From Azolla caroliniana (lineage: Eukaryota > Plantae > Polypodiophyta), in assembly GCA_043228905.1 (NCBI GenBank), contig JBHGNT010000011.1:7502001-7566000 (forward strand): a DNA stretch of 64,000 nt. The letters are read 5' to 3'. The notes below the pieces were generated by a model. The model saw only the letters and a list, made by a program, of their open reading frames with translations, ran no database searches and had not been told where the DNA came from. How positions within the stretch are numbered: position 1 is the first letter of the stretch; every line of letters starts with the position of its first letter. The position numbers and the translations under genes were made by a program. Below are positions 4,027 through 59,180 of the stretch, piece by piece.

Positions 4027-4439
4027 TGTAAATGATTACTTGGGGAACCGTTAGAAAACAGAGAAATTAGGGAATACATAGGTACACGGGAGAGACAGAG
4101 AGAGTAGAATGTAAAATCTATATTCAAAATGATATAATCACTCTGTCACTTATAACTGTGCTCAATAGCACTATTTATACAAGTCCTCATGGGACTGACA
4201 GAAGTACCGCGTACTTCAATGCTCACACGAGCTTCTAACACTTACTACGAGACTATAATTGCCTAGTAGTCTAAACTAATACTAGGCTTCCAGTTACCGA
4301 TTGGATCCGGCTAACCGGCTCGCCAGCTCACCGGCTCTGTTGCTTGTCAGCTCGGTTGCTCACGGCTTACCGATCCGTCTCGCTTGCCGGCTCAGGCTTA
4401 TTCAGTCGATCCGGCTCCAGTTGAGCTTGCTGCTCAACA
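4027..4439 (-). repeat. 5' LTR of copia family A copy 1
   Basis: TG...CA ends; clearly similar to the LTRs at 48896-49326, 54293-54739 and 57057-57581. Confidence 0.88.
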
Positions 4440-4559: not shown

Positions 4560-5780
4560 CGCCTCTGAGATTATCTCGATTCCTTTCATGATTGGCTCGC
4601 ACCGTTAGGAATTGGACCGATCTTTGGTTGTCAAGACTCTTTATTCATGTGAAGGTTGCTCCATTATCAAACACTTTGGTCTCCATCCGAGATGATGTGA
4701 TATACGGTTGTCCTAGGATGACAGGATGCGACGCCGATTCTTGCACGAAGAAGTGTTGTCTTCTATGTTGTCATCTATGTACACGATATTTTGTCAGATC
4801 GCCTCTCGAAGGCTCGCGCAATCCCTTCTCATGTGGTCCATGCTATCGCACCACACGCATCTAAAGGGTTCTTTTCCTTTGGGCCCCCGACGATTCATGC
4901 TGGTCTTCGCTAGCTCTTCAATAATGTTGTCATCAATCTTCCTTTCTTCCAGGCTGCTTTGTTTGGGCAGCTCAACTACTTTCGGTTGTCTTGTTTTCTC
5001 CGCAACAATCGATCCCACCAAGTTGGTGTCATCAACCCATTGGCGACGCTTGTCAAGCCTATTGCATGTCCACTTCACCGCGATCCAATCCACTATGAGC
5101 CCATTTGCTTAGGTATCGTCTTCGAGTAGAGTCCCCAACTCCCGTCTATCCTTCATGTCCATGGCCTTCAAGAAGTATAAAGTCTTGTCCTCTTCAAGCA
5201 ACACTTGATCCGTGCTAGGGAGACGACGAAACATCTAGTCGAATTCGTCGTACACCCTCGAGGCGCTCATCTTCTTATTCTTCTTCTTTATCCACTTCAT
5301 CAGGGCATGTCGAGTCATCCTCGTTGGGTCTTCAGTCGTGAACTCCACTAGTATCGTTTTCTCGAACTCGGACCATGTTGTCTTACCTTCTTGCAGTTCG
5401 ATGACGCGTCTTTGGACGTTGTTAGTGACAACTCTCTTGAAGCTTGCAATTTGACGTGCTTCGGACACGTCCCTCTGATTCATCTCCCTTCTATATGTAT
5501 CAAGGACCTTCGTAACATTCCTTCCATCAAATTGACCTTCGAGCTCTACGACACGGTCAACGGTCTTCTCCACGCTCGCATCGTTGTCTCGAGATCTCAT
5601 CATTTGTTCGACGATTAACATCATCCTTTCGAGCTCTCCCACTTGGTTGCTTGAGGACGCCATCTCCAAGTATTAATCTCGGCTTGATCCTTCCGATCGC
5701 CTCTTTCATGTCAGGTTCACCGCTTAATTATATTGTGAAGATCCGTCACTACGCACGGATCGTGAGGCGGAACCGCCGGG
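4560..5780 (-). mobile_element. Ty3/gypsy gag fragment (family B), decayed
   Basis: GQFDGRNVTKVLDTYRREMNQRDV plus knuckle CVWCDSMDHMRRDC; homologous to the gag at 13451 (GRFNEKDVTSYLEAYKAEM). Confidence 0.75.
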
Positions 5781-6320
5781 GTTCTGGACCGGAAGGATTC
5801 GATGTTAGCACAAGTTTTAGCGAGAAAGGAATTAAGATAGGTTGAAAGAGAGAGAGATTGAGAAAAGATAGAACGCTTGATTTTAGATTGAGAGAGAGAT
5901 TAAGAACTCTTGACTTTAGATTTCAAAAACAAGTTACACGATCCATTCGATAACAAATTTTCTTCTTCTTAATTTCATAACCAAAAGAGCCTAACCCTTC
6001 TTCTTTTTCATCCCTCCTTTTATAGATGTTCTCATGCATATGATGCATGAGAGGGTACAAGACATGCATAAAATGCATGTTTTCCATTTGGCGCTCATGT
6101 AATACATGTGGTGCATGATAACCATGTCACTCATTTTAGCTCTCATGTATGTGAATTTACATGTAAAAGTACAATGATAGAAATATAAATTCAACTAAAT
6201 GTCATGGCTTAGTGGTAAGCTTACTAACTCTTAACTAGGAGGTGCAAGGTTCGAATCCTTACTTGCCCTCCTTGTATATATATATGTGATATATATTAAT
6301 TTATTTACTAATTTGGTCGT
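5781..6320 (-). repeat. Probable LTR of gypsy family B (right boundary uncertain)
   Basis: Left edge GTTCTGGACC resembles the reverse complement of the LTR end at 13160; reversed TATA (CCTTTTATAG); same layout as 17101-17850. Confidence 0.5.
6198..6269 (+). pseudogene. tRNA-Lys(CTT)-like module (tRNA-derived, acceptor stem lost)
   Basis: A-box TGGCTTAGTGG, D stem GCTT/AAGC, 7-nt loop CTCTTAA, 5-nt variable loop AGGTG, T arm AAGG-TTCGAAT-CCTT; acceptor stem does not pair. Confidence 0.6.
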
Positions 6321-6833
6321 CGGATGCTGCCGGTTTCCATCGGTTGCCACCGTCGCCGGATGCCGGATTCCGCCTCGCTGGATCACCGGCTCCGTGATCC
6401 GGCTCCGCCACCGCCTCGCCGGCGCATGGCGATCGCCGGTTACCATCCAATTCCGTTTTGGTTGGCCAAAACCTTTATAAGTGGCTAGGCCACCTCCACT
6501 CTTAGTTCAAGTTACCTTGACCTCTCTATGCTCCACACATAGACGCAAAGATAATAACTTTTGCTCTACGTTATATATATTAAGAGCCTTATTCGTCCTA
6601 TCTATGTGGGATATCTCACAATTTTCTCTTTTTCTTTTGCAACTTCTTACCCACATAAGTTGACACTTAGATGTCCGTTTCTTATGTAGTAAAGTCCATC
6701 TCTTTAAGATCTTCGTCTTTTGTACTAAGATATTAAACTTACTTAGAATTAGTATATTCACTATTATTGTTTTATATGATTGACACTTGATTTCGTACGT
6801 CTTATGTGATTTTCACACCATTGTCAAAAATCT

Positions 6834-8597
6834 TCATGACACCGCATATTTCCTTATTGGTGCTTTAATGGGTAATAAGGAGGCTTTCTTCAAATTAACA
6901 TGACCTTGAATATATGGCCTCAGTGTTGTTATTAAGTTACTGCTTGTCTCAATAGCATGTCTGAAGGATTCTAGCTTGCATGAATCCTTCAACAAGTAGT
7001 CTTCGGAGACCATCATCTATCAGACTCCTTTTGTATAGTTGACTAATACAATCAAATTAGTTGAGTCCGCATCTTCATAGTCCAGCCGCTGCACCATCTT
7101 GAGCAAGCATACCATGTCCAGCCAGTCTGGTAACTAATAGTACTACTTTCTTTTTCGAGTCTACATATTGCATTGCCCACTCATATCCAGTTAAGTCTAT
7201 GTCTAACTAGTCCTCACTTCCTCCAACCGCGGCATATGTTTTCTGACTAACCTCGTCAGACGGTTGCCTCACGACTTAGTCTTCAAACATGAGTTTCTTT
7301 CCCTTTTGTGGATATGTCACAACAGGGATCTTTGTGTTGTCTGGAGGTGAGCTTTAATACTTAATCTGAATTCTGTTGAGTGGCCTCTCCTCCTTAGGGT
7401 CAGTCGACCTGCATGATATAATACAACAGATGAACCTAAACCTATAATCTCTCAAATTAAAATGTATTGTAGTCTAGAAAATGCGATAACAAAAAATAGT
7501 TTGGCCTTATGAAGCTCTTGCCTAACCAATAGTGTAGTGGAGAAAGTTTTGTATGGGGTGTCAAATTATATATAGTATGCAGATTGGTAGTATGGAACGC
7601 TAAATTAGCAATCCAATATAGTTATGGATTTGAAACCTGGGGACTGGACAGAGGAAAATGTATATTTAACGTCTCATAGTCCACCAGACACTAAAATTAG
7701 TAAGATTTTGGTATCCCCAACAGTACCTAAATATCAACTTTATTGACCCAATTTGACCGTATTTTGACCTAATTTAGAAGTTTTGAACCTATTTTTACTA
7801 CTTATTTTTGGTCTAATGTGTGTTATGACCCCCAACTCGATACTACATATCGAGTTTAGCCTGGGAGCCACAACTCGATATGCCGTATCAAGTTAAGACC
7901 CCCGCGTATTGAGTTTTAGCACTGGGAGCCACAACTCGATACGGCGTATCAAGTTAAGACGCCTCGATACGCCATATCGAGTTTTAGCCATGGGAGCTAC
8001 AAATCGATACGCCATATCGAGTTAAGACCCTCGTGTATTGAGTTTTAGCATTGGGAGCCACAACTCGATATGTCGTATCGAGCCATAATGAGTTGGGAGG
8101 CATAACTCGATACGACGTATCAAGTTATGTCCCCCAACTCGATACGAAGTATTGAGTTATGTCACCCACCTCGATACGGCGTATCGAGTTATGTCCCCCA
8201 ACTCGATACGGCGTAACGAGTTATGTCCCCCAACTCGATACATCGTATCGAGTTGTAGCCCTATGAGCCACAACTCGATACGACGTATCGAGTTATGTCC
8301 CCCAACTCGATACGACGTATCGAGTTATGTCCCCCAACTCGATACGACGTATTGAGTTGTGACACCTAGGGCAACAACTCAATACAGCGTATCGAGTTGG
8401 GGGACATAACTCAATACGCCGTATCGCATTATCTCTCCGAACTTGTTACGACGTATCTAGTTCTAGCCTTAGGAGCCACTAGATACGAACGTAACGAGTT
8501 CTAATACGAAATATAAAGCACGTAGAGTCATATGTCCGTACAGTTTAGGGTTTAGATCCTACCTAATGTCAGAACGGGCAGTCTTTTTGCTCGACAT
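6834..8597 (-). pseudogene. Putative two-exon gene of unknown function divergent from the transposase (exon 1 8597-8563, exon 2 7408-~6834)
   Basis: ATG at 8597, donor AG|GTAGGA, acceptor TGCAG|G, phase-compatible join (MSSKKTARSDIR-STDPKEERPLN...); five internal stops each one C>T change from a sense codon, one further stop near the frameshift, and one frameshift near 7140. Confidence 0.45.
7830..8500. repeat. Array of ~18 (plus 2 half) copies of the 23-bp palindrome AACTCGATACG-N-CGTATCGAGTT
   Basis: Read directly; linkers recur (ATGTCCCCC giving a 32-bp period, TTAGC(C/A)..GGGAGCCAC, AAGACCC). Confidence 0.95.
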
Positions 8598-9240
8598 GAT
8601 GATCGTGTCGGTTCAGGGATGCATGAGGTATCTTGGGAGTTCTCGCATCTGTGATTTGGCGTTCTGGAGAGTGGTTATGCTCAACTGTGGGGAATGAAAA
8701 AGAGAGGTCGGTTCTATTTATGGGAGGGGAAGGGTCCATAGTTAACAAAGTAACCACGGTTAGAATTAAATGCCAATAGTGCCTTTAGTTATTTATCTTA
8801 GAATTTGTATTTATTATTATCATAACATAATGATTATCTTTATACTTTATGTGTAATATGATCATTATGATCTAGTAGTTATGATTTCATACTTATGTGT
8901 ATTATGATTTAGTACCTATTATGATCTAGTACTTATTATGATTTAATACATGTGCAAGGTTAGTCCAATGATTGAGTATAATTATCTACATTTATGGTAG
9001 TCTAATGATTTTGATTTTGAGAACATTCACTAATTGGGTGAGGATAGTGGTATTATGCAATTATGTCACATGGACACGTGATCAATTTTTATTTATAACT
9101 AATAAAAATATAGAAAAAATTATATAATAAAATATACAAAATACATATATATTTCCTTAGAATTCTATTTGTAGTTTAAGTATGTCTTACAATTTGTATG
9201 CTTAGGGAGTGAAAGATAAAGGATATTAGAACCTCAAACA

Positions 9241-11981
9241 ATGGGAAATAATTCACCCTTTTCTGTTGAGGAATATCAACTGTCATCGGATTCCTCACCT
9301 TCTCTAGGGTTTTCGGTAGAAGAATACCGTTGGTCTCAAGATTCTAATTTCTCCGTTGAGGAGTATATAATCTCCGACAGTTCAGTCAATACGACAAGAT
9401 TCCTTGAATTCTCAATTGAAGACTATGACCCATATGCAAACTCGGGTGAGAATGTAGGTGATTGTCAAAGTCCCGAAAGTATTTCTACCCAGCAACAGAG
9501 AACAAATGTGCACCAAGAGGAGGACACACCAATATCAGCTAAGGATGACAATAAATCAGTGAGCCCCTTATTTTTCAAAAGGGTCTCAAGACGTATTAGT
9601 CGAGAACGATTTGCTTTAGCGACATCTGAGGCTCAACTTACCGTAGATGTTAAAAAGACATGTTGCGCTCGTGGGTGTATGGCGATGATTGGAAAGCAAA
9701 ACTTGCGGTCTTTGAGACATTACTATTTTTCACTCAATGGTGATGAACAAGACATCTATCTTATGACACACTTACAGATGGTGTCAGACAAAGCCTTAGA
9801 TATCTCGATCTCTTTCGAGTATTACCTTTTTACAACACGACAATGTTGTAGAGTGGCATTCAAGATCGCACTTTGTGTTAGCAACATGAGATTACATAGA
9901 GTACAACAAAGAGTTTTAAACGGCAACAATCCCATTGAAGATGATAATTTGCCAAGTATGAAGGGTGCATCAGGTAGAAATGCGATCTGCTGGATGAAGA
10001 CATACTTCAAGTTCAATTGTGAGATAATGCCAACTACCATTAGGTTGCATCTCTTTGACAATTATACACGTCGAGAAGTTTATGATTCCTATAGATTGGA
10101 AATGTCAACTTGTTGCGACAAGTATGTCACCTACAGTCAGTTCACAAGGTTGTGGACATTGCACTTGAGTAATGTTATTATACCTCGTAAAGTACGTATG
10201 GGGTATTGTTCAGTATGTGCAAACCTAAAGAGCGTGTGTAAAGGGGCAAAGATAGCGACAGAGAAGGAGCTAAATAAGAAATTGTTACAAGATCACCGAG
10301 ACGCCCAAGCATTAGAGCAAAAAAGAGCTATGCAACATAGGGAAAAGTCAATAAACAATCCAACTAAGTACATGTGTTTAATGATAGATGGAATGGACCA
10401 AAAGAAGACGTGTCTACCTCATCTTAAACGTCTTCCTAAAGATGTCAACGACGATTGTCTCGTACAGATGCACTTGGTGGGTTGTTTAGCCTATAATGGA
10501 AGTGTGAAGCCTCATGTCTTCGTCACCTACCCAAATGTCCACAATGACCCTAATTTAACAGTCACTGTGATTCAAAAAGTATTGATGTTTTGGGGGTAGT
10601 CTTTGCCGCCGGTTTTATATATTCAACTAGACAATACTGCTCAGGAAAACAAAAATTCTACGGTGTTTGGTTATCTAAGTCTGCTGGTGAACCAAGGAAT
10701 TTTTAGGAAAGTGAAAGTTAACTTTCTATTGGTTGGTCACACACATGACCATATCGATCAGATGTTCAATAACTTCTCTAGGCAGTTATCACGATATGAT
10801 GCTTTTACGTTACCTAAGTTGTTCGACATCATTCGTGATGCATATACGCCACACCCAATCGTGGAACACTTGAAGGAAATATATGATTTCAAGAGATACA
10901 TATTAGATGGTGGTGAGCGAAATTCCAAAGTGTTAGCGCCCTTAAATAATTTAAGTTTCAACCACGTATTCTTAATAAATAAAATTGATCATAGTGGTTG
11001 TACATTATTATATGCAAAGTAGTATTCATCCTCCCCCCAATGGGAGCCTGAAGGCGGGTGTCAGTTTCTACTTCATATACCTTCCACTTTTGTTTATGGT
11101 GTAGGACAAATGCCGATTGAGACTAAGAAAGTTGTCACCAATGTACTAGCTGAAAATCGAAAGGATGTTTGGATGCAAGCGTTGCAAGACAAACGCAAGC
11201 ACATTGACAATGCGAAGAAGTATGTTGGGGAACAAGACACATCATGGTGGGATGTGTTCTTTAAATATCAAGAACAAATTGTTGACAATTGTGTCCTTGG
11301 TACTTGGACCGTGCAAATACCCTTCACCTGGAATATACAATAGTGTCGTAATTCTCAGACTTCTCCTCTTGCACCTAATGCGATTAATGATAGCTTGCTC
11401 CATCCACCACAAAGGGACATATATGTTGGACCCAGACTGACAAAAACAGCAAAAGCAAGGTGGCAAGGGAACTTGCCAGAATTGAAGGTGGGTATGTTAA
11501 TTCCTACACCTATTGATGATAATGAGCTAGGACATCAATTTTGGATTGGTAAGGTTTTAGATGTGGTGATGCATGAGAACCAAAGCCAAATCCAGTCTAT
11601 AAAGGTGCATTGGTACAACACTAAAAGCAAAAATTCCTTTACCGGCAAGTATGCTTTAGAGATGATGGAATGTCCACAGTCAAGGGGGAATGAAATATTC
11701 ATAGCACTTCATGCCTAGACATTGGTGATGTAGATATTATTGTTTACGACTTCACACTAACAAAAGTTGGAGGTCTCAGGAAGTCTACAATAGATATTAT
11801 CAAGGAGAAATTACCTATTCTACAAGGGGTCTCATGTCGAAGGCAAACAAGATCGTCTATACATAACATGGAATGTCAACATCTAGTTTTAGATGAAGAC
11901 AATGCCTTAATAGGTACATCCGAAGATGACGAGGAACAATCTGCATTGTATATTAGTTATAGTAGTGACTATGGACCATGA
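9241..11981 (+). pseudogene. Sola-like DDD transposase (DUF7869-type), ~910 codons, decayed
   Basis: ORFs 9241, 10603, 11110 and 11395 share one frame, separated by single TAG stops, with a frameshift near 11690. Motifs: CCARGC, CRVAF, CSVC, MIDGMDQ, LYIQLDNTAQENKN, FLLVGHTHDHIDQMF. Confidence 0.75.
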
Positions 11982-12363
11982 TATGAGTGATTTTTGTAAA
12001 TTTTACACTCCTCAATGATATTTTGGTATCTAATGTACGAGAGTGTCGTTTGTAATACTCGAAATATGCGTAAGTTATGGTTAGAAATATTATTGCTTTG
12101 TACAGACATTGTTTGTTACAAAATACATTACTTCTTGACTTCTCACTGATAGTGAACATTGTACCATTTCGATTATAGCATAATTTTAGCGTTTTTCCAA
12201 GTTTAGGAAATGATGATTTTTTGAGGTTTTCCAACGACATTTTGAGAACATGTGATACTGGTACCATTACATTTTGTGAATAGAGTATCTAAACCCCAAA
12301 AATTGAGGGAATATTCCTTATCCTTCCATTTTTGCGCGATCCTTCCACTTTTGAACGCGAACG

Positions 12364-13160
12364 TGTTTTAGAGCTGATCCACAGTAACATCTAGGCTGAT
12401 GCCCGAAAGTTCTTTGGGAGGTGCACGATGTTGTGAGGGATTCCAGGCGCACAGAGAAAGGGGAGTCGATTGCGTGCAAATGGGAGTTTCAACCACAAGA
12501 AGGAGAACTCGCCGGTCGCATGTGAATGCGCGGAGGAGGCACAAGAACTAGGCTTATGTGTATATTAAAAACATCGTAAATAACCTAGGAATAATAAGTT
12601 CTAAGAAATATGATTCAGATGGGTACTTTAATATCCCATGAAGGAGAGGAATCAAAGGAGTGTAGGGAGGAAAATGAGGGGAGAATATCTGATAAAATTG
12701 GTTGCCTTTAATGTGATGTAACGGCCTCCCCTTTGTGCTATAAAAGGGAAGGCTTTGAATTGTGGTCTGGATCCATCGTTTTGGAGGGAGAAGTGTTGTC
12801 AGTTTGAGATATGGAGCCCTGTCGTTCTCCCTGGGCCTGTTTTGCTTTGTCTTGATTCAAAAGGACGGTGAGGCCTTTGCTTGCATAGGAAGCCCGTGTG
12901 CTCCCGACCAGAGGCTCATCGTTTTGTGTGTGTGTGTGTGTGTGTGCAAATCTTGAAGCTTTGTTACCGGCCAAGTCCGGTTGTATTTCTCTCTGTTTAA
13001 GTTAATCGATTATCTTTGTTGCTTCCGGATTCTCTGTGTCATCATGTGTCTCTTTGCTTCTACCTATGATCTTCACTCCACTTCCTTCCATTTGCATGCT
13101 TATCTGAGTCTTTGACCCTGCGGACTCATTGTTCTGGTATTCGGCATCAGGTCCGGAACA
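12364..13160 (+). repeat. 5' LTR of a gypsy family B-like element
   Basis: TGTTTTAGAGCTGAT...ATCAGGTCCGGAACA imperfect terminal inverted repeat, CTATAAAAG near 12738, gag follows at 13451. Confidence 0.65.
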
Positions 13161-48679: not shown

Positions 48680-48895
48680 ATTTCGACCATATTTCCTCTT
48701 CTTGGCTTGCAAGGAGTACCATGATGCCGTCTCATCAAACTCAACATCTCGGCTTACTCGAACCTGCTTAGTCCGAGGGTTATAGCACTTATATCCCTTT
48801 TGGTCATGCGAGTAGCCGACTAGGATGCACTTCTCTGACTTCCGATTGAGCTTCTTTCGCTTCTCCTTCGGTACATGCACATATGCTATGCTACC
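48680..48895 (-). mobile_element. Copia family A copy 3, integrase C-terminal remnant split off by the nested copy
   Basis: GSIAYVHVPKEKRKKL...KCILVGY...VSRDVEFDE; continues seamlessly from 54745. Confidence 0.9.
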
Positions 48896-48947
48896 TGTGG
48901 AAACGTATGTGCGGAAGCGTAAGACAACAACTTGGCTACGTAGCAGC

Positions 48948-48979
<32 letters not shown>

Positions 48980-51900
48980 TAATACACAGAATACAGAGAG
49001 TACTTGGGATAGACAGAGAGAGTAGAACAATAATCTAAATTCAAAAATTATATCAACACTCTATACATGAAACGTGCTCAACAACACTATTTATACAAGT
49101 CCTGAGAGGACTGACAAAAGTACCGCGTATTTCAATGCTCACTCGAGCGTTGGCCCTGACTACGAGACTGTTAACTCCCTAGTAGTCTAGCTGCTAGTAG
49201 GCTTTCAGTTATTGGTGGATCTGGCTAACCGGCTCCCCAACTCACCGGGTCACTTGCTCACCGGGTCACCGATCCGGCTCAGGCTTATTCAATAGATCCG
49301 GATCTGGTTGAGCCTGCCGCTCAACACTCCCCCTCAAGCTCAACTTGAGGTCAGATCCATGGTAGCCGGTTCTTCCACCTGGCTCCTTTTGGCGTCACTC
49401 CGCCTCACTCGCGCTCCTCGTTCGGTCCGGTCCCGTTTGCCGCAACCCTTCTGTTCCTGCGCACCTCGACCTCCTCGGTCGGCTTGTCTGATCAATAGGC
49501 CCAATTCAGCTCCCTCGCTGTTGTGACTTCGGCTCTTGCCGATTCGCCGATTCCTTCATGTTGGCATCGACTTTCACTGCCTTCTCATCCTCTTGGCCTA
49601 GAATTGATCCGGTTCTTCTGAATCCTGTAGAACCGAATCGGTTGTCTCTGATTCATTCAAGCTCTTGTCTGAATCGGTTGCTCCCGATTCGTCTTCTGGC
49701 TCTAGGCCCTTCACCACATCGGACCATGTCTGGGTCTTGGCCTTCTTCTTCCAGTCGGCTCTGTCCTTCTTGACTCTGCCTCCGCTGCCGCTTGTTCTGA
49801 CTTGTTCGGATGTGTCGACTTCCTTTGTCGACTCGGCTCCTTTCTTCTTCTTGTATCCCCCTTTGTCGATTCTTCCCTCACTGGCACAATTGGCAGCCTC
49901 TTTGTCTTTGCTCGTTCCGGTGTCTTTGCCTGTTCTCCCCCTCAAGTGGGGCACGTCGAGATGTTGAACACCAAGCATTTCAGTGAAGTGCTACAACTTG
50001 TCTGATCCGAGCGGTTTGGTGAAGATGTCAGCAACTTGTCGATCTGTATGAACATACCGAAGTTCGACTTCACCGCTCAGGACACGCTCACGCATGAAGT
50101 GATAGTGCACTTCTATGTGCTTTGTGCGAGCATGGAATACGAGGTTCTTGGCGAGCTGCATGCTGCTCATATTGTCAAAGTAGATCAGGATCGGGGTCGA
50201 TACCTTGATCCGTAGATCCTGCAACAGTTGCCGAAGCCAAATGGCTTCACAGGTGGCAACGATAGCGCCCCGATACTCAGCCTCAGTGCTCGACAGAGCC
50301 AATGTTGGTTGCTTTTTGCTGCTCCACGCAACAACCGCGCTACCTAGGGAAAACATGTATTGGAAGTTGATCGGCGATCTGATGCATCGCCGGCCCAATC
50401 AGCATCAGTGTAACCGACTAGCTCTTCGGTTATACCTCGCCGGTATAACAGTCCCTGGTCCTTTGTGCCGCTCACATACCGCAATATTCGGTGCGTGCAC
50501 TGAAGATGCTCTACAGTCGGCTTTTGCATGAATTGGCTAATCACACCGACCGGATAGCTTATGTCGGGTTGGGTGATGGTCAAATATATAAGGCTTTCGA
50601 CAATTTGTCGGAACCGTTTCTCATCGCAGGCCTGTCCAAAATTGGGACAAAGCTTCTGGTTCCGGTCCAGGGGTGTTGAGATAGGTCGACATTCTGTCAT
50701 GCCGAACTTGTACTGCATATTCAACACATAATGTCTTTGTGAGAGCAATATGTCGTTAGGGGTTCGGATCACCTTGATCCCAAGGAAATAGTGAAGGTCC
50801 CCCAGGTCCATCTCAAATGCGTTCGACAGCTGGGACTTTACTCGGCTGATTTCATCGAGCCCGGGTCTGGTGATGACTAGATCATCAACATACAACAAGA
50901 TGCAAACCGGACCGTCCGGACCTTGCCGGATGAAAAACGAAGAGTCGAACTTGGAGGCCGCAAACCCCATCTTACGCAACCGGTGCGTAATCTTCGCATT
51001 CCATGCTTGGGGGGCTTGCTTCAGGCCATAAAGTGACTTCTTCAGCCGGCATACAGCCGACTTGTTCATCTCCGATTGAAAACCGAGGGGCTGAGTCATA
51101 TAGACTTCTTCTTCAAGATCACCTTGAAGAAACGCATTCTTCACATCCATCTGGTGAAGATGCCACCCCCTTGCTGCTGAAACCGCCAGTACCACACGAA
51201 CTGTCGTCATCTTCGCTACTAGAGCGAAGGTCTCGTCATAGTTGATTCCGTGGGTCTGCGCATATCCCTTCGCCACTAATCGGGCCTTGTACCGGTTAAT
51301 TGAACTGTCAGTGTTGTACTTTACCTTGTACACCCACTTGCATCCGATCGGTTTACAGTGACGAGGAGGGTCAACCAGGTCCCCTGTCTTGTTGGCATCA
51401 AGTTCCTGCATTTCTTCCTCCATAGCGGCACGCCAATTCGCGTCCTTTTCCGCTTCTGCGTAGCTCTCCGACTCACGCACTTCCGCCACCTTGGTCATGT
51501 ACGCATAGTGATGCGCCATGTACTCATTGTACCTGTACCGGATCACGGGGTTCTTCTGGCGGGTTGACCGGTGTAACTCACCGTTACTCGGTTTGAGACC
51601 CTATTTGGCCAGGTCCTTTCCGGAGTCAGATTCGCTCCAATCCGACTCAACGTTGCCGGTATCGTATTCCGGCATCTTCTTCTTCTCCTTCTCTCTTTTG
51701 CAAGTGAACTGTCTCCTTGGTTCCTTGCACGGGGAGAGCACGACAGAGTCTCCACTACTCGCTAGTTCCTCATCTGACTGGTCATCTCGACTCAGCCGCT
51801 CATTCGGTCCACTTAACCGAAAGGAGATCGGATTCTCTTCTAGAGTGCCGACGTCCTCATCTTCGAACTGGACCAATTCAAGCTCACTAGCCTCATCCTC

Positions 51901-54739
51901 CAGTATCGGGTCGGGGCCGAAAGTCGGAGCTGGTAAGGCATACCATGATGCCGTCTTAGCAAACTCAACATCTTGGCTAACTTGGACCTGCTTTGTCCGG
52001 GGGTTATAACATTTATACCCCTTTTGCTCATGCGAGTAACCGACTAGGATGCATTTCTTCGACTTTGCATCCAACTTCCTCCACTTCTCATCTAGTACAT
52101 GCATATATGCAATGCTACTGAATATTCAAAGGTGTCGCAAATTCGGCTTGCGCCCGAAATACAACTCATGCGCAGACACCTTGTCACCGATCCGATTTTG
52201 GATATAGACGGCCGTCCGGACCGCCTCCGCCCAGTAGAAATGGGGCATGCTCTTCTCTTCCAACATTGTCCTTGCCGCGTCGATAAGCGACCAGTTCTTC
52301 CTCTCGGCTACACCGTTCTGTTCCGGTGTGTATCTGCAGCTGAACTCTCGCCGAAATCCTGTTTGTTGCAGATAACTGTTGAATTGGCCGGAAAAATATT
52401 CTTTTCTGCCATCCGACCGCAGACACTTGATCTTTCTCTCCGATTCCCGCTCCACCATTCTTTGGAGGTTCCGGAAACAGTCGAAGACTTCGCTCTTTTG
52501 CTCAATGAGGTAGATCCATGTGTGCCGACTGTAGTCGTCGATGAAGGAGACGAAATATTGACTCCCGCCAAGACTCATGTTCGGTGCCTGTCCCCATACA
52601 TCCAAATGAATAAGGTCGAGCTTGTTACGGCTACGATTTCGTTCGGTGGGGAATGGAAGCCGGTGTTGCTTCCCGAGTTGGCAGGCTTCACATATTTGGG
52701 CCTTCCGGCCACTGAACTTCGGCAAACCGAAAACAACTTGTTTCGTTTGCAGGTCTTGAAGCCTCCGGTAATTGACATGGCCGGTCCGCTTGTGCCACAG
52801 GTCGATGTCAGATTCGACCTTCTGTCCTTTGGCGAACAAAGCGGTGCCGACGTCATTGGTGTTGAGGATGAACATCCTCCCGTCTCTACGCCCTTGTGCA
52901 ATGATTTGGCCCTCTTCCTCGATGAAGCACCCGAGGTGCGTAAACTGCACCTGCATTCCCTAGTTGACAATCTGTCCAACCGACACCAGGTTCTTCGTGA
53001 TAGTCGGAACGTGTAATACGTTCATCAGCTTCCCCCTCTGTCCGACGTGGCTCAAAGGGACTTCGTCAATATGCACGATTGGGTGAGGAGTGTCGTCTCG
53101 GGTTTCGAGAACTCCCAGTTGTTTCGGTTTCTCCAGGAAAGAGAACCACTCTTTGTGGCTCGTCATGTGATTCGATGCACCGGAATCAACATACCATACT
53201 TCCTCCGATTTGGAAGTGGTCTTCTTCATTGAATTTGCCTCGTGCTTCATTACCAAGGCTGGCCCCTTACCGGTCTTCCCGGTTGGGGATCCTTTCGATC
53301 CTTGTGCCGGTTCTCCCGACTGGTTTTGTCGGATCCAGATCTATCAGAACCGGCGCGCTTCTTCCAGCACTCGCTTTCTCTATGGCCCTTTTTGCCATAG
53401 TACTAGCATTCCGTGGTGGATTTGTCTTGCCAGCCTCCAGCGCTGCCTTGACTCCCCTTGCTTGTGGAAGTCCCGGAACTGCTGTCGGCCCGTTCTTTGT
53501 GCCTTCTTTCCTGCTCTTGCCGACCGCTTCCAATGCGTGCCGAGCCACCTTGTCCCCTACGCCCATGGGGCCTATCCGCCTCCGGTTGTCCAATTGAGTG
53601 GTCCTAGACCCACTCGCGTGGTTTTCTTCGACCATCAGCATCGATTGCAAGTCGAAGAAGGTCGGTGGCTTCTCCCGGGTGCAGATCGTTGTCCGGATTG
53701 GCCCCTACCTTTGTGCTAGACCACCAAGGTAGATTTGTACCATTTCTTCTTCGTCCACCGTCACGTTGATGGACCCAAGCGCGTCGCAAATCTCCTTTAT
53801 TTTGGTGGTGTAGTCCGTGACCGACATATCTTTTTGTCAGATGTTGTTCAGCTCTTGCCAGAGCTGCAACTTACGGGTTGTGGTACTTGTGGTGAAAATC
53901 TTACGCAGATTTTCCCAGGCCTCCTTCAACGTTTTTGCATCCTTGATGTAGTTGAGCATCTGGTCATGCACACAGGACGTGAGGCAATATAATACTCGGC
54001 TCGCTCCTTGCTCCCATACCGGGAAGTCCTTGTGTCCAGGCTCTGGTGCTATCTCATTCGTTCCTTCCACGAAACTCCAATACCCATGCCCCAATAGGTA
54101 CTGGTGCATTTTGTATGACTAGGACGCGTAGTTGCTCCGGTCGAGCTTCTCTGTAGGAAGCGAACTCGCCATACCTCTGTCCATATATATTTTTTTTCTC
54201 TGTCTACTGTTCTATTCTCACAACCTGTAGGGTTTGTCTTGCGAAAGCGAATGTCGGCTACAGAGGTCTTCAACCCTCGCGCTCTGATACCATGTGGAAA
54301 CGTATGTGCGGAAGCGTAAGACAACAACTTGGCTGCGTAGCAGCAAAGAGAAAGAGAGAGAGAGAATAATACACAGAATATAGAGAGTACTTGGGAGAGA
54401 CAGAGAGAGTAGAACAATAATCTAAATTCAAAAATTATATCAACACTCTGTACATGAAACGTGCTCAACAACACTATTTATACAAGTCCTGAGAGGATTG
54501 ACAGAAGTACCGCGTACTTCAATGCTCACTCGAGTGTCTAGCCCTGACTACGTGATTGTTAACTCCCTAGTAGTCTAGCTGCTACTAGGCTTCCGGTTAC
54601 TAGTGGATCCGGCTAACCGGCTCCCCAGCTCACCAGCTCACTTGCTCACCGGGTCACCGATCCGGCTCATCCTTCCGGATGCCGATTCGGCTCAGGCTTA
54701 TTCAGCCGATCCGGATCCTATTGAGCTTGCCGTTCAACA
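48896..54739 (-). mobile_element. Full-length Ty1/copia family A copy 2 (5844 bp)
   Basis: LTRs 48896-49326 and 54293-54739, TSD CTACC on both sides, PBS 54281-54292, PPT 49327-49335, gag-PR-INT-RT(LYVDD)-RH with several stops and frameshifts. Confidence 0.97.
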
Positions 54740-54744
54740 CTACC

Positions 54745-57198
54745 GAATATCCGAAGGTGTCTCAAATTCGGCTTCCGCCCGAAATACAACTCATGTGATG
54801 ACACCTTGTCTCCAATCCGGTTTTGGATGTAGACGGCCGTCCATACCGCCTAAGCCCAGTAGAATTGGGGCATGCTCTTCTTCTCCAGCAGTGCCCTTGC
54901 CGCATCGACAATTGACCGGTTCTTCCTTTCGGCCACACTGTTTTGCTCTCTGAATTCCGTTCTGGTGCAGATAACTGTTGAATTGGCCGAAAAAGTATTC
55001 TTTTCCGCCATCCGACCGTAGGCACTTGATCTTCCTCTCAGTTTCCCGTTAGACTAAGCTTTGAAGGTTCAACAACTATCTGCAGCTGAATTCTCTTCGA
55101 ATTCCGTTCTACTGCAGATAACTGTTGAATTGGCCGGAAAAGTATTCTTTTCCGCCATCCGACAACAGACACTTGATCTTCCTCTTAGTTTCCCGTTCGA
55201 CTAACCTTTGAAGGTTTTGGAAACATTTGAAGACTTCACTCTTCCTCTCAATGAGGTAGATCCATGTGTGCCGGTTGTAGTCATCGATGAAGAAGACGAA
55301 GTATCGACTCCCGCCAAGACTAACGTTTTGTGCCGGTCCCCATACATCCGAATGGATTAGATCGAGCTTGTTATGGCTCCGGTTTCGTTCGTTGGGGAAT
55401 GGAAACCAGTGTTGTTTCCTGAGTTGGCAGGCTTCACAAATTTTGGCCTTCCGGCCGCTAAATTTCGGCAAAGCGAAAACAACTTGTTTCGATTGCAAGT
55501 CCCGAAGCCTCCAGTAGTTGACGTGGCCGATCCACTTATGCCAGAGATCGATGTCGGATTCAATCTTCTATCCTGTGGCAAACATGGCAGTGCCGACGTC
55601 ATTAGTGTTGAGGATGAACATCCTCCCTTCCATGTGCCCTTGCGCGATTATCCAGTCTTCTTCCTCGATGAAGCACCCGAGGTGCGTAAACCGCACCTGC
55701 ATCCCCTGGTTGACGATATTGTGCAACCGACACCAGGTTCTTTGTGATAGTCGGAACGTGTAGTACGTTCATCAACTTCCCCTTTTGTTCGACATGGCTT
55801 AAAGGGACTTCTCTGACATGCACAATCAAGTGTGGGGTGTCGTCTCCGGTTTCAACAATTCCTGGTTGTTTCGGTTTCTTCAAAAACAAGAACTACTCTT
55901 CATGACTCGTCATGTGGTTGGATGCTCCGGAATCAACGTACGATACTTCATCCAATCCGGAAGTAGTCTTCTTCATCGAGTTGGCGTTGTGCTTCATCAT
56001 GAAGGTTGGCCCTTTACCGGTCTTTCCGGTTCTGGATCCTTTCGATTCTTCCGCGTAGTGCGAGCTTTGCTAGTTCTCCTGACCAATTTTGCCGGATCCA
56101 GATTTGTCCTAATCGGCGTGCTTCTTCTAGCACTCGCTTTCCCTGTGGCCCTTTTTGCCATAGTACTAGCATTTCGTGTCGGCCTTTTCTTGCTGGTTCC
56201 CGGCGCCGCTTTGACTCCCCTTGCTTGTGGAGGGTCCAGAACTTCTGTCAGCACCACTTCTGTGCCTCTGGTCCTGCTCTTGTCGACCGTCTCCATTGCG
56301 TGCCAACCCACCAAGTCCACCACATCCATGGGGCTCATCCGTCTCTAAGTATAACATCCGGTCATCCAATTGAGAGGTCCTTGATCCACTCGTGTGGTTT
56401 TTCTTCGACCATTAGCATCGATTGCAAGTCGAAGAAAGACAGTGGTTTCTCTCGGATGCAAATCGTTGTCCGGATTGGCCTATACCTTTGTGCTAGACCA
56501 TCAAGGCAGATTTGTACCATCTCGTTTTCGTCTACCGTCACATTGATGAACCTGAGTGCGTTGCAAATCTCCTTTATCTTGGTGGTGTAATCTGTAACCG
56601 ACATGTCTCTTTGCCGGATGTTGCTCAGCTCTTGCCGGAGCTGCAACTTACGGGTTGTGGTACTCGCGGAGAAAATCTTCCTCAGATTTCCCTAGGCGCC
56701 CTTCGACGTCTTTGCATCCTTGATGTAGTCGAGCATCTGATCATGCACACAAGACGTGAGGCAGTACAATACTCATCTTGCTCCTTGCTCCCCATACCGG
56801 GAAGTCATTGTGTGTCGGCTCCGGTGCTACCTCGTTCGTTCATTCCACGAAGCTCCAATATCCATGCCCCAACAGGTACTGGTGCATCTTGTATGACTAG
56901 GACGTGTAGTTGCTTCGGTCGAGCTTCTCTGTTGGAAGTGAACTCGCCATCCCTCTATCCATATTTTCTCTTTGTCTGTTGTTGCTGGGTTCTAGGGTTC
57001 GTCTACGAAAGCAAGTGTCGACCGCAAAGGTTCTCAACCCTCACGCTTTGATACCATGCCAATGTTAACCTGCGGAAGCATTAGACAGAACCGGCTCAGC
57101 CGGATAGCAACAGAGAACAAGATGAAGGTTTAATGGTGAAGCTTAACACACAGAGAGTATACGCGGGAGAGAGAGAGAGAGAGAGAGAGGGAGGGAGG

Positions 57199-57240
<42 letters not shown>

Positions 57241-57581
57241 AGAAGATAAAGTCAATTAAAAAAATCACTCTAAAAACGCTCTATAACTTTGAGTACATAC
57301 AACGTGCTAAACAACACTATTTATACAAATCCATAAAGGATTGAAAAAAGTACAGACAAGCACTTCAATATTCCTACGTGCGACTGACACTATCTACGAG
57401 ACAATGATTACCTAGTAGTCTAGGCTACTACTAGGCTTCCGGTTCCCACTCGAATCCGGCTCTCCAATCCGTCTCCTCGATCCAGTCGGGTGTTTCCGGA
57501 TACTGGCTCATCCTTCCAGATGCCGATCCGGCTCAGGCTTCTTCAGCCGATCCGGATCCGGTTGAGCTTGCTCGCTCAACA
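54745..57581 (-). mobile_element. Copia family A copy 3 (5' LTR 57057-57581, PBS, gag, protease, integrase)
   Basis: Colinear with copies 1 and 2; PBS-like GCTTTGATACCA 57045-57056; long (GA)n in the LTR; internal duplication ~54950-55215. Confidence 0.93.
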
Positions 57582-57729
57582 GAATGTTTGTCTCTCGTGT
57601 TTGGCCTGAGCCCTGCACTATGTGCTCGCTGCTGTCATCTGGACGGACTTCCTACTCCCTCTGGTTGCTTGGTTTGAGACCCCCGTAGTCCTGCCCATTC
57701 TAACACGTACTTGCGGATTTATGCGACAA

Positions 57730-59180
57730 CAGGGTTCTTTGCCAAACTGGATGTTGCTGAGGTTGTCGCAATAGATCGTCGTCAGATCAGACACCTCCAC
57801 TCGCAGATCCTTTAGGAGCCTCTTTAGCCATATGGCCTTGCATTCAACGTCGGTTCTCTACAGTGCTACTATTAGCTGCTTTTTATTGCTCCAGGCAACC
57901 GTGACGCTTCCTAGTGAAAACACATATCCGGATGTAGATCTGCGGTCGCCTACATTTCCGGCCCAATCGGAATCCGTGCAGCCAAGTTGTTTGGCTACAC
58001 CGGTCCAATACAACAACCCCTCACTTTGATCCTCGAGGAAGTAATGAAGGTCCCCAAGATCCTTCATGTCAAACAATGCCACAACTCGGGATTTGACGCG
58101 GTCGATTTTGTCTAGATCGGCGTCGACAATGACTAAATCATCAACATAAAGTAAAATACTAATTGGCCCGTTCCGACCTTGCCTAATGAAGAGAGAAGAG
58201 TCCAATTTCAACGGAGCAAACCCCATCCGACGCAGTCTCTTCGTGATTTTTGCGTTCTAGACACGCGGGGCTTGCTTGAGTCCATAGAGGGAATTCTTCA
58301 ATCGGCATACAACCGATGTGTTCACTCCGAACTGAAATCCAGGGGGTGAACCATAAACACTTGTTCCTTAAGGTCACCTTGGTGGAACACGTTTTTCACA
58401 TCCATCTGATGTATATGCCACCACTTCGCCGCTGCTACCGCAAGCAGTACATGGACGATCGTCATCTTCGCGACCGGCGCGAATGTCTCATCGTAGTCGA
58501 TGCCGTGCTACTGCGCGTAGCCTTTGGCCATTAAGCCGAGCCTTGTAACTATTGACAGAGCCGTCGATGTTGCATTTAACCTTGTATACCCATCTACAAC
58601 CGATCAACTTCACTCCTTTCGGTACGTCCACTAAGTCCCACATCTCATTTTCATTGAGTGCGTGCATCTCTGCCTTCATAGTGGCACGCCAATTTGCGTC
58701 CTTGGCCACTTCTGTGTAGCTCTCTGGCTCACGCACTGTTGTCACCTTCATCATGTACGCATAATGATGCGCCATATACTCATTGTACCAGTACCTCTTC
58801 ATGGGGTTTTTCTGGCGGGTGGATCGGTGCATTTCCTGATTCGCCGATTTCGTGGCCTCCTTGGCCAATTCCGACCTCTTCCTCGGAGGTGCATGTTTGG
58901 TTCTGTTGGAGTCAGATTTTGTTCGATTCGACTTGGCTCGGCTGGTGTCGTACTCCGGCACCTCCTTCTTCCTGTTTTCTTGTCACGTGAACCGTCTCCT
59001 TGGTTCCTAGCATGGGGAGAGCACGACCGAGTCTCCACTAATCGTCGGCTCTTCATCTTAATAGTCATTCTGACTTAGTCACTCATTCGTCTCACTTAGC
59101 CGGAATGAGATCGGACTCTCACCGAGAGTATCAAATCCCTATTCATCTTCTGGCCAAATTGTTTCGGGCTCACTGGTCTA
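57730..59180 (-). mobile_element. Copia family A copy 4: INT-RT linker, RT with internal deletion, partial RNase H
   Basis: YMAHHYAYM..VREPESY, LYVDDLVI, DSDWAG..DRRSTSGY. Confidence 0.9.

What the first reader, a model, noticed from the sequence alone, without database searches (positions are those of the whole stretch)
6834..11981. Candidate undescribed two-gene Sola-like DNA transposon: transposase, divergent partner gene and internal palindrome array
Seen: a ~910-codon frame (9241-11981) with Cys clusters and D..D..D motifs (IDGMD 10387, QLDN 10630, GHTHDHID 10756); an AT-rich ~500-bp spacer; then a head-to-head spliced frame on the minus strand whose intron holds a 23-bp palindrome array. 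Knowledge: these motifs match Sola-type DDD transposases, which I know as single-ORF elements mainly from animals, protists and moss. Accessory genes acting through internal repeats are known in other superfamilies, e.g. VANC anti-silencing proteins of Arabidopsis VANDAL/Mutator elements. Inference: this is one element with a bidirectional promoter, and its second protein or the transposase binds the array, possibly for targeting or anti-silencing. No TIRs or TSD could be identified; both ends abut LTR sequence.
Basis: partly seen in the sequence, partly recalled or inferred. Interest (0 to 1): 0.8.

Follow-up and report, generated by a model that had tools for sequence, protein, structure and literature searches.

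The report
Plant transposon with own DNA methylase
This is a broken copy of a multi-copy cut-and-paste transposon family, likely from a seed-free plant, whose intact relatives carry a second gene for a bacterial-style ParB-like/DNA-methylase protein and a row of regularly spaced palindromes that this protein likely binds in order to put a methyl mark on the element's own DNA, a design already reported in algae.

Summary
The two head-to-head genes and the array are real and form one element, but this copy is dead. The transposase (DUF7869, Sola-type) has three stops and a frameshift. The partner gene is cut at 6841 by a likely LTR.

Intact relatives are ~7.6-8.6 kb elements with 5'-AACA(C/T) TIRs; one clean insertion has a 4-bp TSD. 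Their partner gene is a spliced ~980-aa fusion: unknown N-domain, ParB-like domain, beta-class N6/N4 DNA methyltransferase with intact DIPY and FSGTG motifs, under purifying selection. It accompanies the transposase in 10 of 15 loci with >=3 kb of upstream DNA. The CGATRC-N3-GYATCG array recurs in four subfamilies, and 122 of 133 unit spacings lie near multiples of ~10.3 bp. Homologues occur in ferns, Ginkgo, Riccia and Chara.

Likely mechanism (inferred, untested): the protein binds its own array and methylates the element. The design is published for brown-algal Sola1-1_Ec32, and ParB-plus-inverted-repeat arrays for red-algal Plavaka elements. This scan found it before on other DNA, including three other pieces of this genome. 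I found no land-plant report or helical phasing in print.

The parts
9241..11981 (+). Decayed Sola-type DDD transposase gene (DUF7869); stops at 10597, 11020, 11341; 13-bp deletion near 11692
   Evidence: PF25273 E=2.2e-41 on the 140-aa piece; 88% identical to intact 917-aa proteins; breaks
12332..12367 (-). Right terminal inverted repeat (terminus 5'-AACAC); element's right end
   Evidence: Similarity to relatives stops here; matches left and right ends of L003, L012, L015, L028
8598..9240 (.). AT-rich spacer between the two start codons, the inferred divergent promoter region
   Evidence: 30% GC; promoter activity not tested
8563..8597 (-). Exon 1 of the partner gene (12 codons, phase-2 GT donor at 8562)
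   Evidence: Similar exon and donor in L001, L002, L003, L005, L008
7409..8562 (-). Predicted intron 1 of the partner gene, holding the array
   Evidence: GT donor and AG acceptor in matching phase; splicing of this intron not observed
7834..8462 (.). Array of 17 palindromes (AACTCGATAC-N3-GTATCGAGTT), mostly 32 or 40 bp apart; likely protein-binding sites
   Evidence: 17 matches versus 0 in 100 shuffles; core conserved in 19 related loci; spacing phased
6842..7408 (-). Remnant of partner exon 2: only the N-terminal beta-rich domain of the ParB-like/methyltransferase protein; five stops, 20-bp deletion near 7090
   Evidence: 82% DNA identity to L003 4291-4900; profile hits E=9e-22 and 8e-18; breaks
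5733..6841 (-). Likely LTR of an unrelated retrotransposon inserted into exon 2 (not part of the element)
   Evidence: TG...CA ends and abrupt loss of similarity to L003; far higher summed contig depth than the element; a gag-like frame follows but has no Pfam hit, so LTR identity is inferred

Best explanation
The stretch is a decayed, retrotransposon-interrupted copy of a two-gene Sola-type cut-and-paste transposon family whose second protein, a ParB-like/beta-class DNA amino-methyltransferase fusion, likely binds the palindrome array in its own first intron and likely methylates the element's own DNA. Shown: TIRs, a 4-bp duplication in one clean insertion, the two divergent genes, the domains by profile and predicted fold, intact catalytic motifs, purifying selection, and a conserved array with spacing near whole helical turns. 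Inferred: a dimer of the protein binds each palindrome as ParB binds parS; neighbouring dimers sit on one face of the helix and cooperate; the tethered methylase then writes N6-methyladenine (more likely than N4-methylcytosine) on or near the array and the shared promoter 100-800 bp away. The mark would let the element tell its own copies apart and would regulate transposase expression, possibly by opposing host 5mC silencing. My odds: family architecture 0.95; protein binds the array 0.7; active self-methylation 0.5; net effect is anti-silencing 0.3.
For: Co-occurrence: partner in 10 of 15 loci with >=3 kb upstream of the transposase match, including 9 of 9 of the near clade (transposases ~52-96% identical to the query) and the distant L065. 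Both trees group window with L003, then L004. Methylase: PF01555 E=1.3e-10 to 4.5e-9 in 3 of 3 motif-I exons scanned; ADIPYG invariant in 6 of 6 rows; DLFSG in 5 of 5; model of homologue P0085 matches CcrM at Z 22.6, rmsd 3.3, 224 aligned. ParB-like: 20 of the first 21 listed Foldseek rows are ParB/Noc/KorB/Srx-type (E 0.009-0.25); Z 7.3 (rmsd 2.6, 98 aligned) and Z 9.4 (rmsd 3.3, 100 aligned) to ParB-type domains. Selection: synonymous sites saturated (pS 0.76-0.97) while dN is 0.08-0.13 within one clade, for both domains. Array: core CGATRC-N3-GYATCG in window plus 19 loci, four flank variants; 122 of 133 spacings within 2 bp of n x 10.3 (39% expected); 14 collapsed spacing classes, 0 of 20000 null draws as phased. 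One contig of a run guessed to be RNA skips the predicted 93-bp last intron. Same idea proposed for algal elements.
Against: No binding, methylation or transposition was measured. The window copy lacks both domains. Five of 15 long-flank loci (L042, L052, L059, L060, L064; more distant transposases) show no partner, and L067 and L075 carry other upstream frames, so the transposase family can exist without it. L065 has the protein but with DSMY at motif IV and a different palindrome spaced 67-68 bp, which is not in phase. L012, an intact-looking element, has only one clear unit. The ParB-like domain reads GGSHS where ParB CTPases have GxxR (motif recalled), and no helix-turn-helix was identified. 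ParB matches were below Foldseek's 0.001 cut-off. The partner tree is mostly unresolved (1 of 7 branches starred). The subfamilies are related and the 10-10.6 bp period range was chosen after seeing the data. The spliced contig has depth 3.6 and also lacks 38 exonic bases. This copy shows ordinary 5mC decay (C>T at CG 17/132, CHG 13/91, CHH 17/795), so it was not kept free of host methylation. TSD seen in 1 of 4 two-ended loci.
Confidence: 0.55

Rival explanations
1. The protein binds the array but acts as a structural or transposition accessory (bridging or loading the transpososome, as Harbinger Myb proteins or CACTA TnpA do; recalled). The methylase domain serves for DNA binding or has a minor role.
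For: The distant homologue in L065 keeps the layout and arrays but has DSMY at motif IV. The ParB-like and helical part is the best conserved stretch (dN 0.08-0.24). Phased spacing fits a higher-order complex.
Against: In the plant clade DIPY and FSGTG are invariant and under purifying selection. The array sits beside the promoter, about 3-4 kb from either TIR.
Confidence: 0.22
2. The protein is an autoregulatory repressor. It binds and spreads from the array, as KorB or Noc do, and dampens the shared promoter so that the element limits its own activity; methylation, if any, is a repressive or timing mark.
For: Fold neighbours include KorB and Noc. The array lies in the gene's own first intron next to both start codons.
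Against: No expression data. The CTP-clamp motif needed for spreading is not canonical.
Confidence: 0.15
3. The array is bound by the transposase or a host factor, and the methylase gene is long-retained cargo with no link to it.
For: No direct link between protein and array was shown. Some relatives lack the partner.
Against: Gene and array travel together across four subfamilies and in L065. The five long-flank loci without the partner also show no upstream array of this motif. ParB-like genes lie beside inverted-repeat arrays in unrelated Plavaka elements.
Confidence: 0.08

Closest known systems
Sola1-1_Ec32 of Ectocarpus (PMC12477816; passages and supplement rows read; figures not seen)
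   Same: Sola transposase plus a gene on the opposite strand encoding a ParB-like domain and an N4/N6 DNA methyltransferase; AAC termini (AACCG there, AACAC here); 4-bp TSD biased to end in A (AACA here); self-modification proposed.
   Different: 21.5 kb with 282-bp TIRs there, 7.6-7.7 kb with ~35-bp TIRs here. Brown alga versus streptophyte plants. 'Palindrom' does not occur in that main text. I did not compare the sequences directly.
Plavaka (EnSpm) elements of Bostrychia, PAG2 and PAG3 (bioRxiv 10.1101/2025.02.11.637652; passages read; supplements closed)
   Same: Accessory genes with PF01555 methylase and ParB-like domains; tandem arrays of inverted repeats next to the ParB-like gene; self-binding proposed.
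   Different: Different transposase superfamily. ParB is fused to a 2OG oxygenase and the methylase to SET, in separate genes; here they are one protein.
VANDAL/VANC anti-silencing system of Arabidopsis (recalled; one sentence seen)
   Same: A plant DNA transposon whose accessory protein acts on its own internal repeats.
   Different: Mutator transposase; VANC is not known as a methylase and no homology to it was seen or tested; VANC removes 5mC, whereas this protein would add an amino-methyl mark.
DAM-carrying retrotransposons (bioRxiv 10.64898/2026.05.21.726589; first fifth and passages read)
   Same: Transposons carrying a prokaryote-like adenine methylase.
   Different: Retrotransposons, NPP-motif DAM family, reported absent from Streptophyta.
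Marchantia DN4MT1 and bdelloid N4CMT (bioRxiv 10.1101/2021.02.12.428880, PMC8885841; passages read)
   Same: Beta-class amino-methyltransferases working in eukaryotic nuclei.
   Different: Host genes with an SPPY motif making 4mC; this family has D-x-P-Y and a ParB-like fusion. Relationship not tested.

Membership tests
Sola superfamily | DDD catalytic triad | tested here: met
   DGMDQ, QLDN and GHTHD.IDQMF conserved across the 20-row alignment, with single substitutions in two rows; catalytic role inferred
Sola superfamily | Terminal inverted repeats | tested here: met
   34-37 bp TIRs in L012, L028, L015, L039; 27 ends found by a profile seeded on 8 of them
Sola superfamily | 4-bp target-site duplication | tested here: met
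   AACA on both sides of L015, whose flanks are two halves of one gypsy-type frame with the length expected from a window homologue. Not seen in L012, L028, L039 (possibly collapsed multi-copy assemblies), so 1 of 4
Sola1 (canonical) | AWWT target preference (PMC3845634) | tested here: not met
   TSD is AACA; flanking 4-mers are AT-rich but varied. Sola1-1_Ec32 is also not described as AWWT
Sola1 (canonical) | Profile or tree placement with Repbase Sola1 transposases | not testable with these tools
   No Repbase or Sola profile held; Bao 2009 not held
Sola2 | DF(S/A)ENY, SDG..QYKN, HGK.PCD motifs | tested here: not met
   Compared by eye with the published alignment, part 1 of 2
Sola3 | TTAA target site (recalled) | tested here: not met
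   1 of 27 ends has a TTAA flank
Sola1-1_Ec32-type element | Opposite-strand ParB-like plus N4/N6 methylase gene, AAC termini, 4-bp TSD | tested here: met
   In intact relatives L003, L012, L015; the window copy keeps only the gene's 5' part
Beta-class N6/N4 DNA methyltransferase | Motif IV (D/N/S-x-P-Y) before motif I (FxGxG), and the fold | tested here: met
   DIPY then FSGTG; Z 22.6 to CcrM for homologue P0085
Beta-class N6/N4 DNA methyltransferase | Target base: adenine versus cytosine | tested here: inconclusive
   Best hits are N6-adenine enzymes, but N4-cytosine enzymes score Z 18.5-19.4
Beta-class N6/N4 DNA methyltransferase | Catalytic activity on DNA | not testable with these tools
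   Needs an assay
ParB/Srx superfamily | ParB/Srx fold | tested here: met
   Top structural matches in two models, Z 7.3 and 9.4
ParB CTPase clamp | GxxRxxA arginine patch (recalled) | tested here: not met
   The family has GGSHSxEARR
ParB CTPase clamp | Helix-turn-helix that reads a palindromic parS | tested here: inconclusive
   A helical region follows the domain, with only weak matches (Z <= 3.8)

The most novel reading that the evidence does not exclude
Seed-free land plants and gymnosperms harbour a transposon-encoded, bacterial-style partition-and-modify system. A ParB-like methylase loads cooperatively on helically phased parS-like palindromes and writes N6-methyladenine across its own element as a private anti-silencing mark, in a lineage reported to lack abundant genomic 6mA. 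Each subfamily would have its own site-enzyme pair, giving a natural set of targetable 6mA writers for plants.
Probability: 0.25. Interest if true: 0.85.

Novelty: new member of a known kind. Interest (0 to 1): 0.55.

Why it matters
The algal reports only propose self-modification from domain content. This plant family gives compact (~7.7 kb), intact-looking members with invariant catalytic motifs, a defined 15-bp core site with four natural variants, and annotated homologues in Ceratopteris. That makes the question of whether a eukaryotic DNA transposon marks itself with 6mA or 4mC directly testable. A positive result would add a non-5mC mark to land-plant transposon biology and a counterpart to VANC anti-silencing. 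The window copy itself is inactive.

Tried and rejected
1. A TTAA-GAG left end at 6580 (recalled Sola3 signature): rejected; no matching right end, and it lies inside the inserted repeat.
2. Insertion without TSD between AA and TT, or CAC termini: rejected by the L015 junction.
3. Search for the element's left part in the window: no hit with four profiles or with the loci's DNA.
4. No whole genome was held, so copy number and paired flanks could not be examined.
5. Viral contigs: 0 of 21 pattern matches encoded a relative.
6. No solved structure similar to the transposase by sequence; it was not folded.
7. The N-terminal domain has no Pfam hit, Atlas scores <=0.76 and only weak PH-like fold matches (Z <= 4.4); it stays unidentified.
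8. CpG observed/expected in intact copies was 0.54-0.92 with no control: uninformative.
9. No RNA holder listed for the window stretch; run X23 laid nothing.
10. A dimer prediction for the ParB-like region was not obtained.
11. Paper searches: DUF7869 gave 0 papers; Sola+transposon+methylase+ParB+Chara, 4 of 5 terms, gave 0; adenine methylation+eukaryotes+ParB+transposon+Selaginella gave 0; ParB+transposon+methyltransferase+algae+accessory gave 7, two relevant; one search gave 13, none on this family by listing. Iyer 2011, Bao 2009, Repbase entries (including Sola1-1_PPa) and bioRxiv supplements were not seen and may describe plant members.
Full report
Observation. Its central piece matches DUF7869 (PF25273, E=2.2e-41). 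A protein search returned 52 homologues among 2793 candidates, all with PF25273: intact 917-aa proteins at 88% identity, and named ones from Ceratopteris (52%), Adiantum and Riccia. The host is therefore likely a seed-free plant (inference; no genome was held). The minus-strand gene has a 12-codon exon 1 (8597-8563), a predicted intron (8562-7409) and an exon 2 with five stops and a 20-bp deletion. The array holds 17 units of a 23-bp palindrome, against none in 100 shuffles.

Element ends. A metagenome scan kept 79 loci of 173 confirmed, and stopped after 42 of 64 parts of the collection. Similarity to the closest loci ends at 12367, and the last ~36 bases recur inverted at the far end of L003, L012, L015 and L028. 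A profile seeded on 8 ends found 27, all beginning AACA(C/T), including the window's 12332-12367. L015 is a complete 7724-bp element inside a gypsy-type frame with AACA on both sides; a 4-bp duplication gives the frame the same length as a homologue in the window. L012, L028 and L039 have both ends but unmatched flanks, which may reflect collapsed assemblies. On the left, similarity to L003 stops at 6841, where a 1.1-kb repeat with TG...CA ends begins. I read this as an LTR insertion. The rest of the element is not in the window.

The partner gene. In L003, L012, L015 and L028 the gene continues for about 2.6 kb beyond the window's break, in six predicted exons of about 980 codons in all, with splice sites at matching positions. 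One exon matches N6_N4_Mtase (PF01555, E=1.3e-10 to 4.5e-9 in 3 of 3 loci scanned). Motif IV is ADIPYG in 6 of 6 rows and motif I DLFSG in 5 of 5, in beta-class order. The best solved relatives by sequence are M.RsrI, M.MboIIA and CcrM. A model of the related 789-aa protein P0085 (mean pLDDT 76.7) matches CcrM at Z 22.6 and N4-cytosine enzymes at Z 18.5-19.4. The middle domain has no Pfam hit, but a weaker model (pLDDT 52.8) returns ParB, Noc, KorB and sulfiredoxin as top matches (E 0.009 and weaker; Z 7.3), and the second model gives Z 9.4 to PadC. It lacks the canonical ParB arginine patch (motif recalled). The N-terminal domain, the only part in the window, stays unidentified. Homologues occur in Ceratopteris, Adiantum, Ginkgo gene models, Riccia and Chara; their genomic context was not seen. 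Synonymous sites are saturated while dN is 0.08-0.13 within one clade, so the gene is under purifying selection.

Co-occurrence. Of 15 loci with at least 3 kb upstream of the transposase match, 10 carry the partner. These are all nine of the near clade and L065. L023 is a nested insertion, L028 and L011 are internally deleted, and L004, L013 and L022 end within the gene. L065 is an 8.6-kb TIR element with a 37%-identical transposase, a divergent 929-aa homologue (hhalign 99.3%) with DSMY at motif IV, and arrays of a different palindrome. L042, L052, L059, L060 and L064 show no partner. L061 and L036 carry parts of it downstream. Trees of both proteins group the window with L003 and then L004; the rest of the partner tree is unresolved.

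The array. The core CGATRC-N3-GYATCG occurs as two or more units in the window and 19 loci, with flanks that differ by subfamily (AACT, AATT/GATT, AAGT, AATC). Spacings fall mainly at 31-32, 40-41 and 50-52 bp: 122 of 133 lie within 2 bp of a multiple of 10.3, where 39% is expected, and 14 collapsed classes were more in phase than all 20000 null draws. The subfamilies are related and the period range was chosen after inspection. L012 has a single clear unit and L065 is spaced at 67-68 bp. I read the phasing as selection for cooperative binding on one face of the helix (inference).

State and expression. The window copy shows C-to-T changes at CG (17/132) and CHG (13/91) well above CHH (17/795), the pattern of plant 5mC decay. 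Contigs of run X1, the best holder of the window's DNA, cover the ParB-like and methylase parts of L003 at 80% likeness, so related copies with these domains exist there. One low-depth contig of run X21, guessed to be RNA, skips 93 bases at the predicted last intron but also lacks 38 exonic bases. This is a weak hint of splicing.

Mechanism. I commit to self-targeted methylation: the fusion protein likely binds its intronic palindromes and methylates the element near the shared promoter, probably at adenine. Binding, catalysis and outcome are all inferred. The rivals are a structural accessory role, autorepression, and unrelated cargo.

What is known. Sola1-1_Ec32 of Ectocarpus has an opposite-strand 1104-aa ParB-like/N4-N6-methyltransferase gene, AACCG termini and a 4-bp TSD, with Sola1-1_PPa as best hit, and self-modification is proposed there. 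Bostrychia Plavaka elements have ParB-like genes beside inverted-repeat arrays and a separate PF01555 gene. Section 8 of PMC4738411 lists no transposon-borne plant clade of this class. The family meets the Sola tests I could run, fails the canonical Sola1 AWWT, Sola2 and Sola3 tests, and fits the Sola1-1_Ec32 type. The scan had already reported the family from three other pieces of this genome and from animal and liverwort DNA; those notes are not independent evidence. My paper searches found no land-plant description and no mention of phasing, but Repbase, Bao 2009 and Iyer 2011 were not seen. Verdict: a real, dead copy of a plant member of a recently described kind, made interesting by a testable site-enzyme pair.

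Noticed in passing
L065:11-8596: Distant complete-looking TIR element with the same two genes, a motif-IV variant (DSMY), two arrays of another palindrome at 67-68 bp spacing and a third 273-codon frame between them with no Pfam hit.
   Followed up: partly
L023:230-4040: One family member appears inserted, in reverse, into the transposase gene of another (TIR at 4040).
   Followed up: partly
L075:565-1950 and L067:164-1684: Distant DUF7869 transposases with other divergent upstream frames (462 and 507 codons; coiled-coil or no Pfam hit), suggesting exchangeable cargo.
   Followed up: no
L061:1480-2403; L036:2493-2981: ParB-like part downstream on the same strand, and methylase convergent to the transposase: alternative gene orders.
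   Followed up: no
P0089 (Chara braunii), P0208: A Chara gene model with two tandem ParB-like/methylase units, and a homologue fused to a SAM domain, possibly domesticated.
   Followed up: no
window:8864-8954; L004:2783-2964; L008:1419-1545: A second set of short AT-rich repeats in the spacer between the two start codons, different among subfamilies.
   Followed up: no
window:9241-9430: The transposase N-terminus is made of repeated acidic FSVEEY-like motifs, kept across relatives in varying number.
   Followed up: no
window:1149-4439, 48700-59130: Several diverged copies of one copia-type retrotransposon family, some nested.
   Followed up: no
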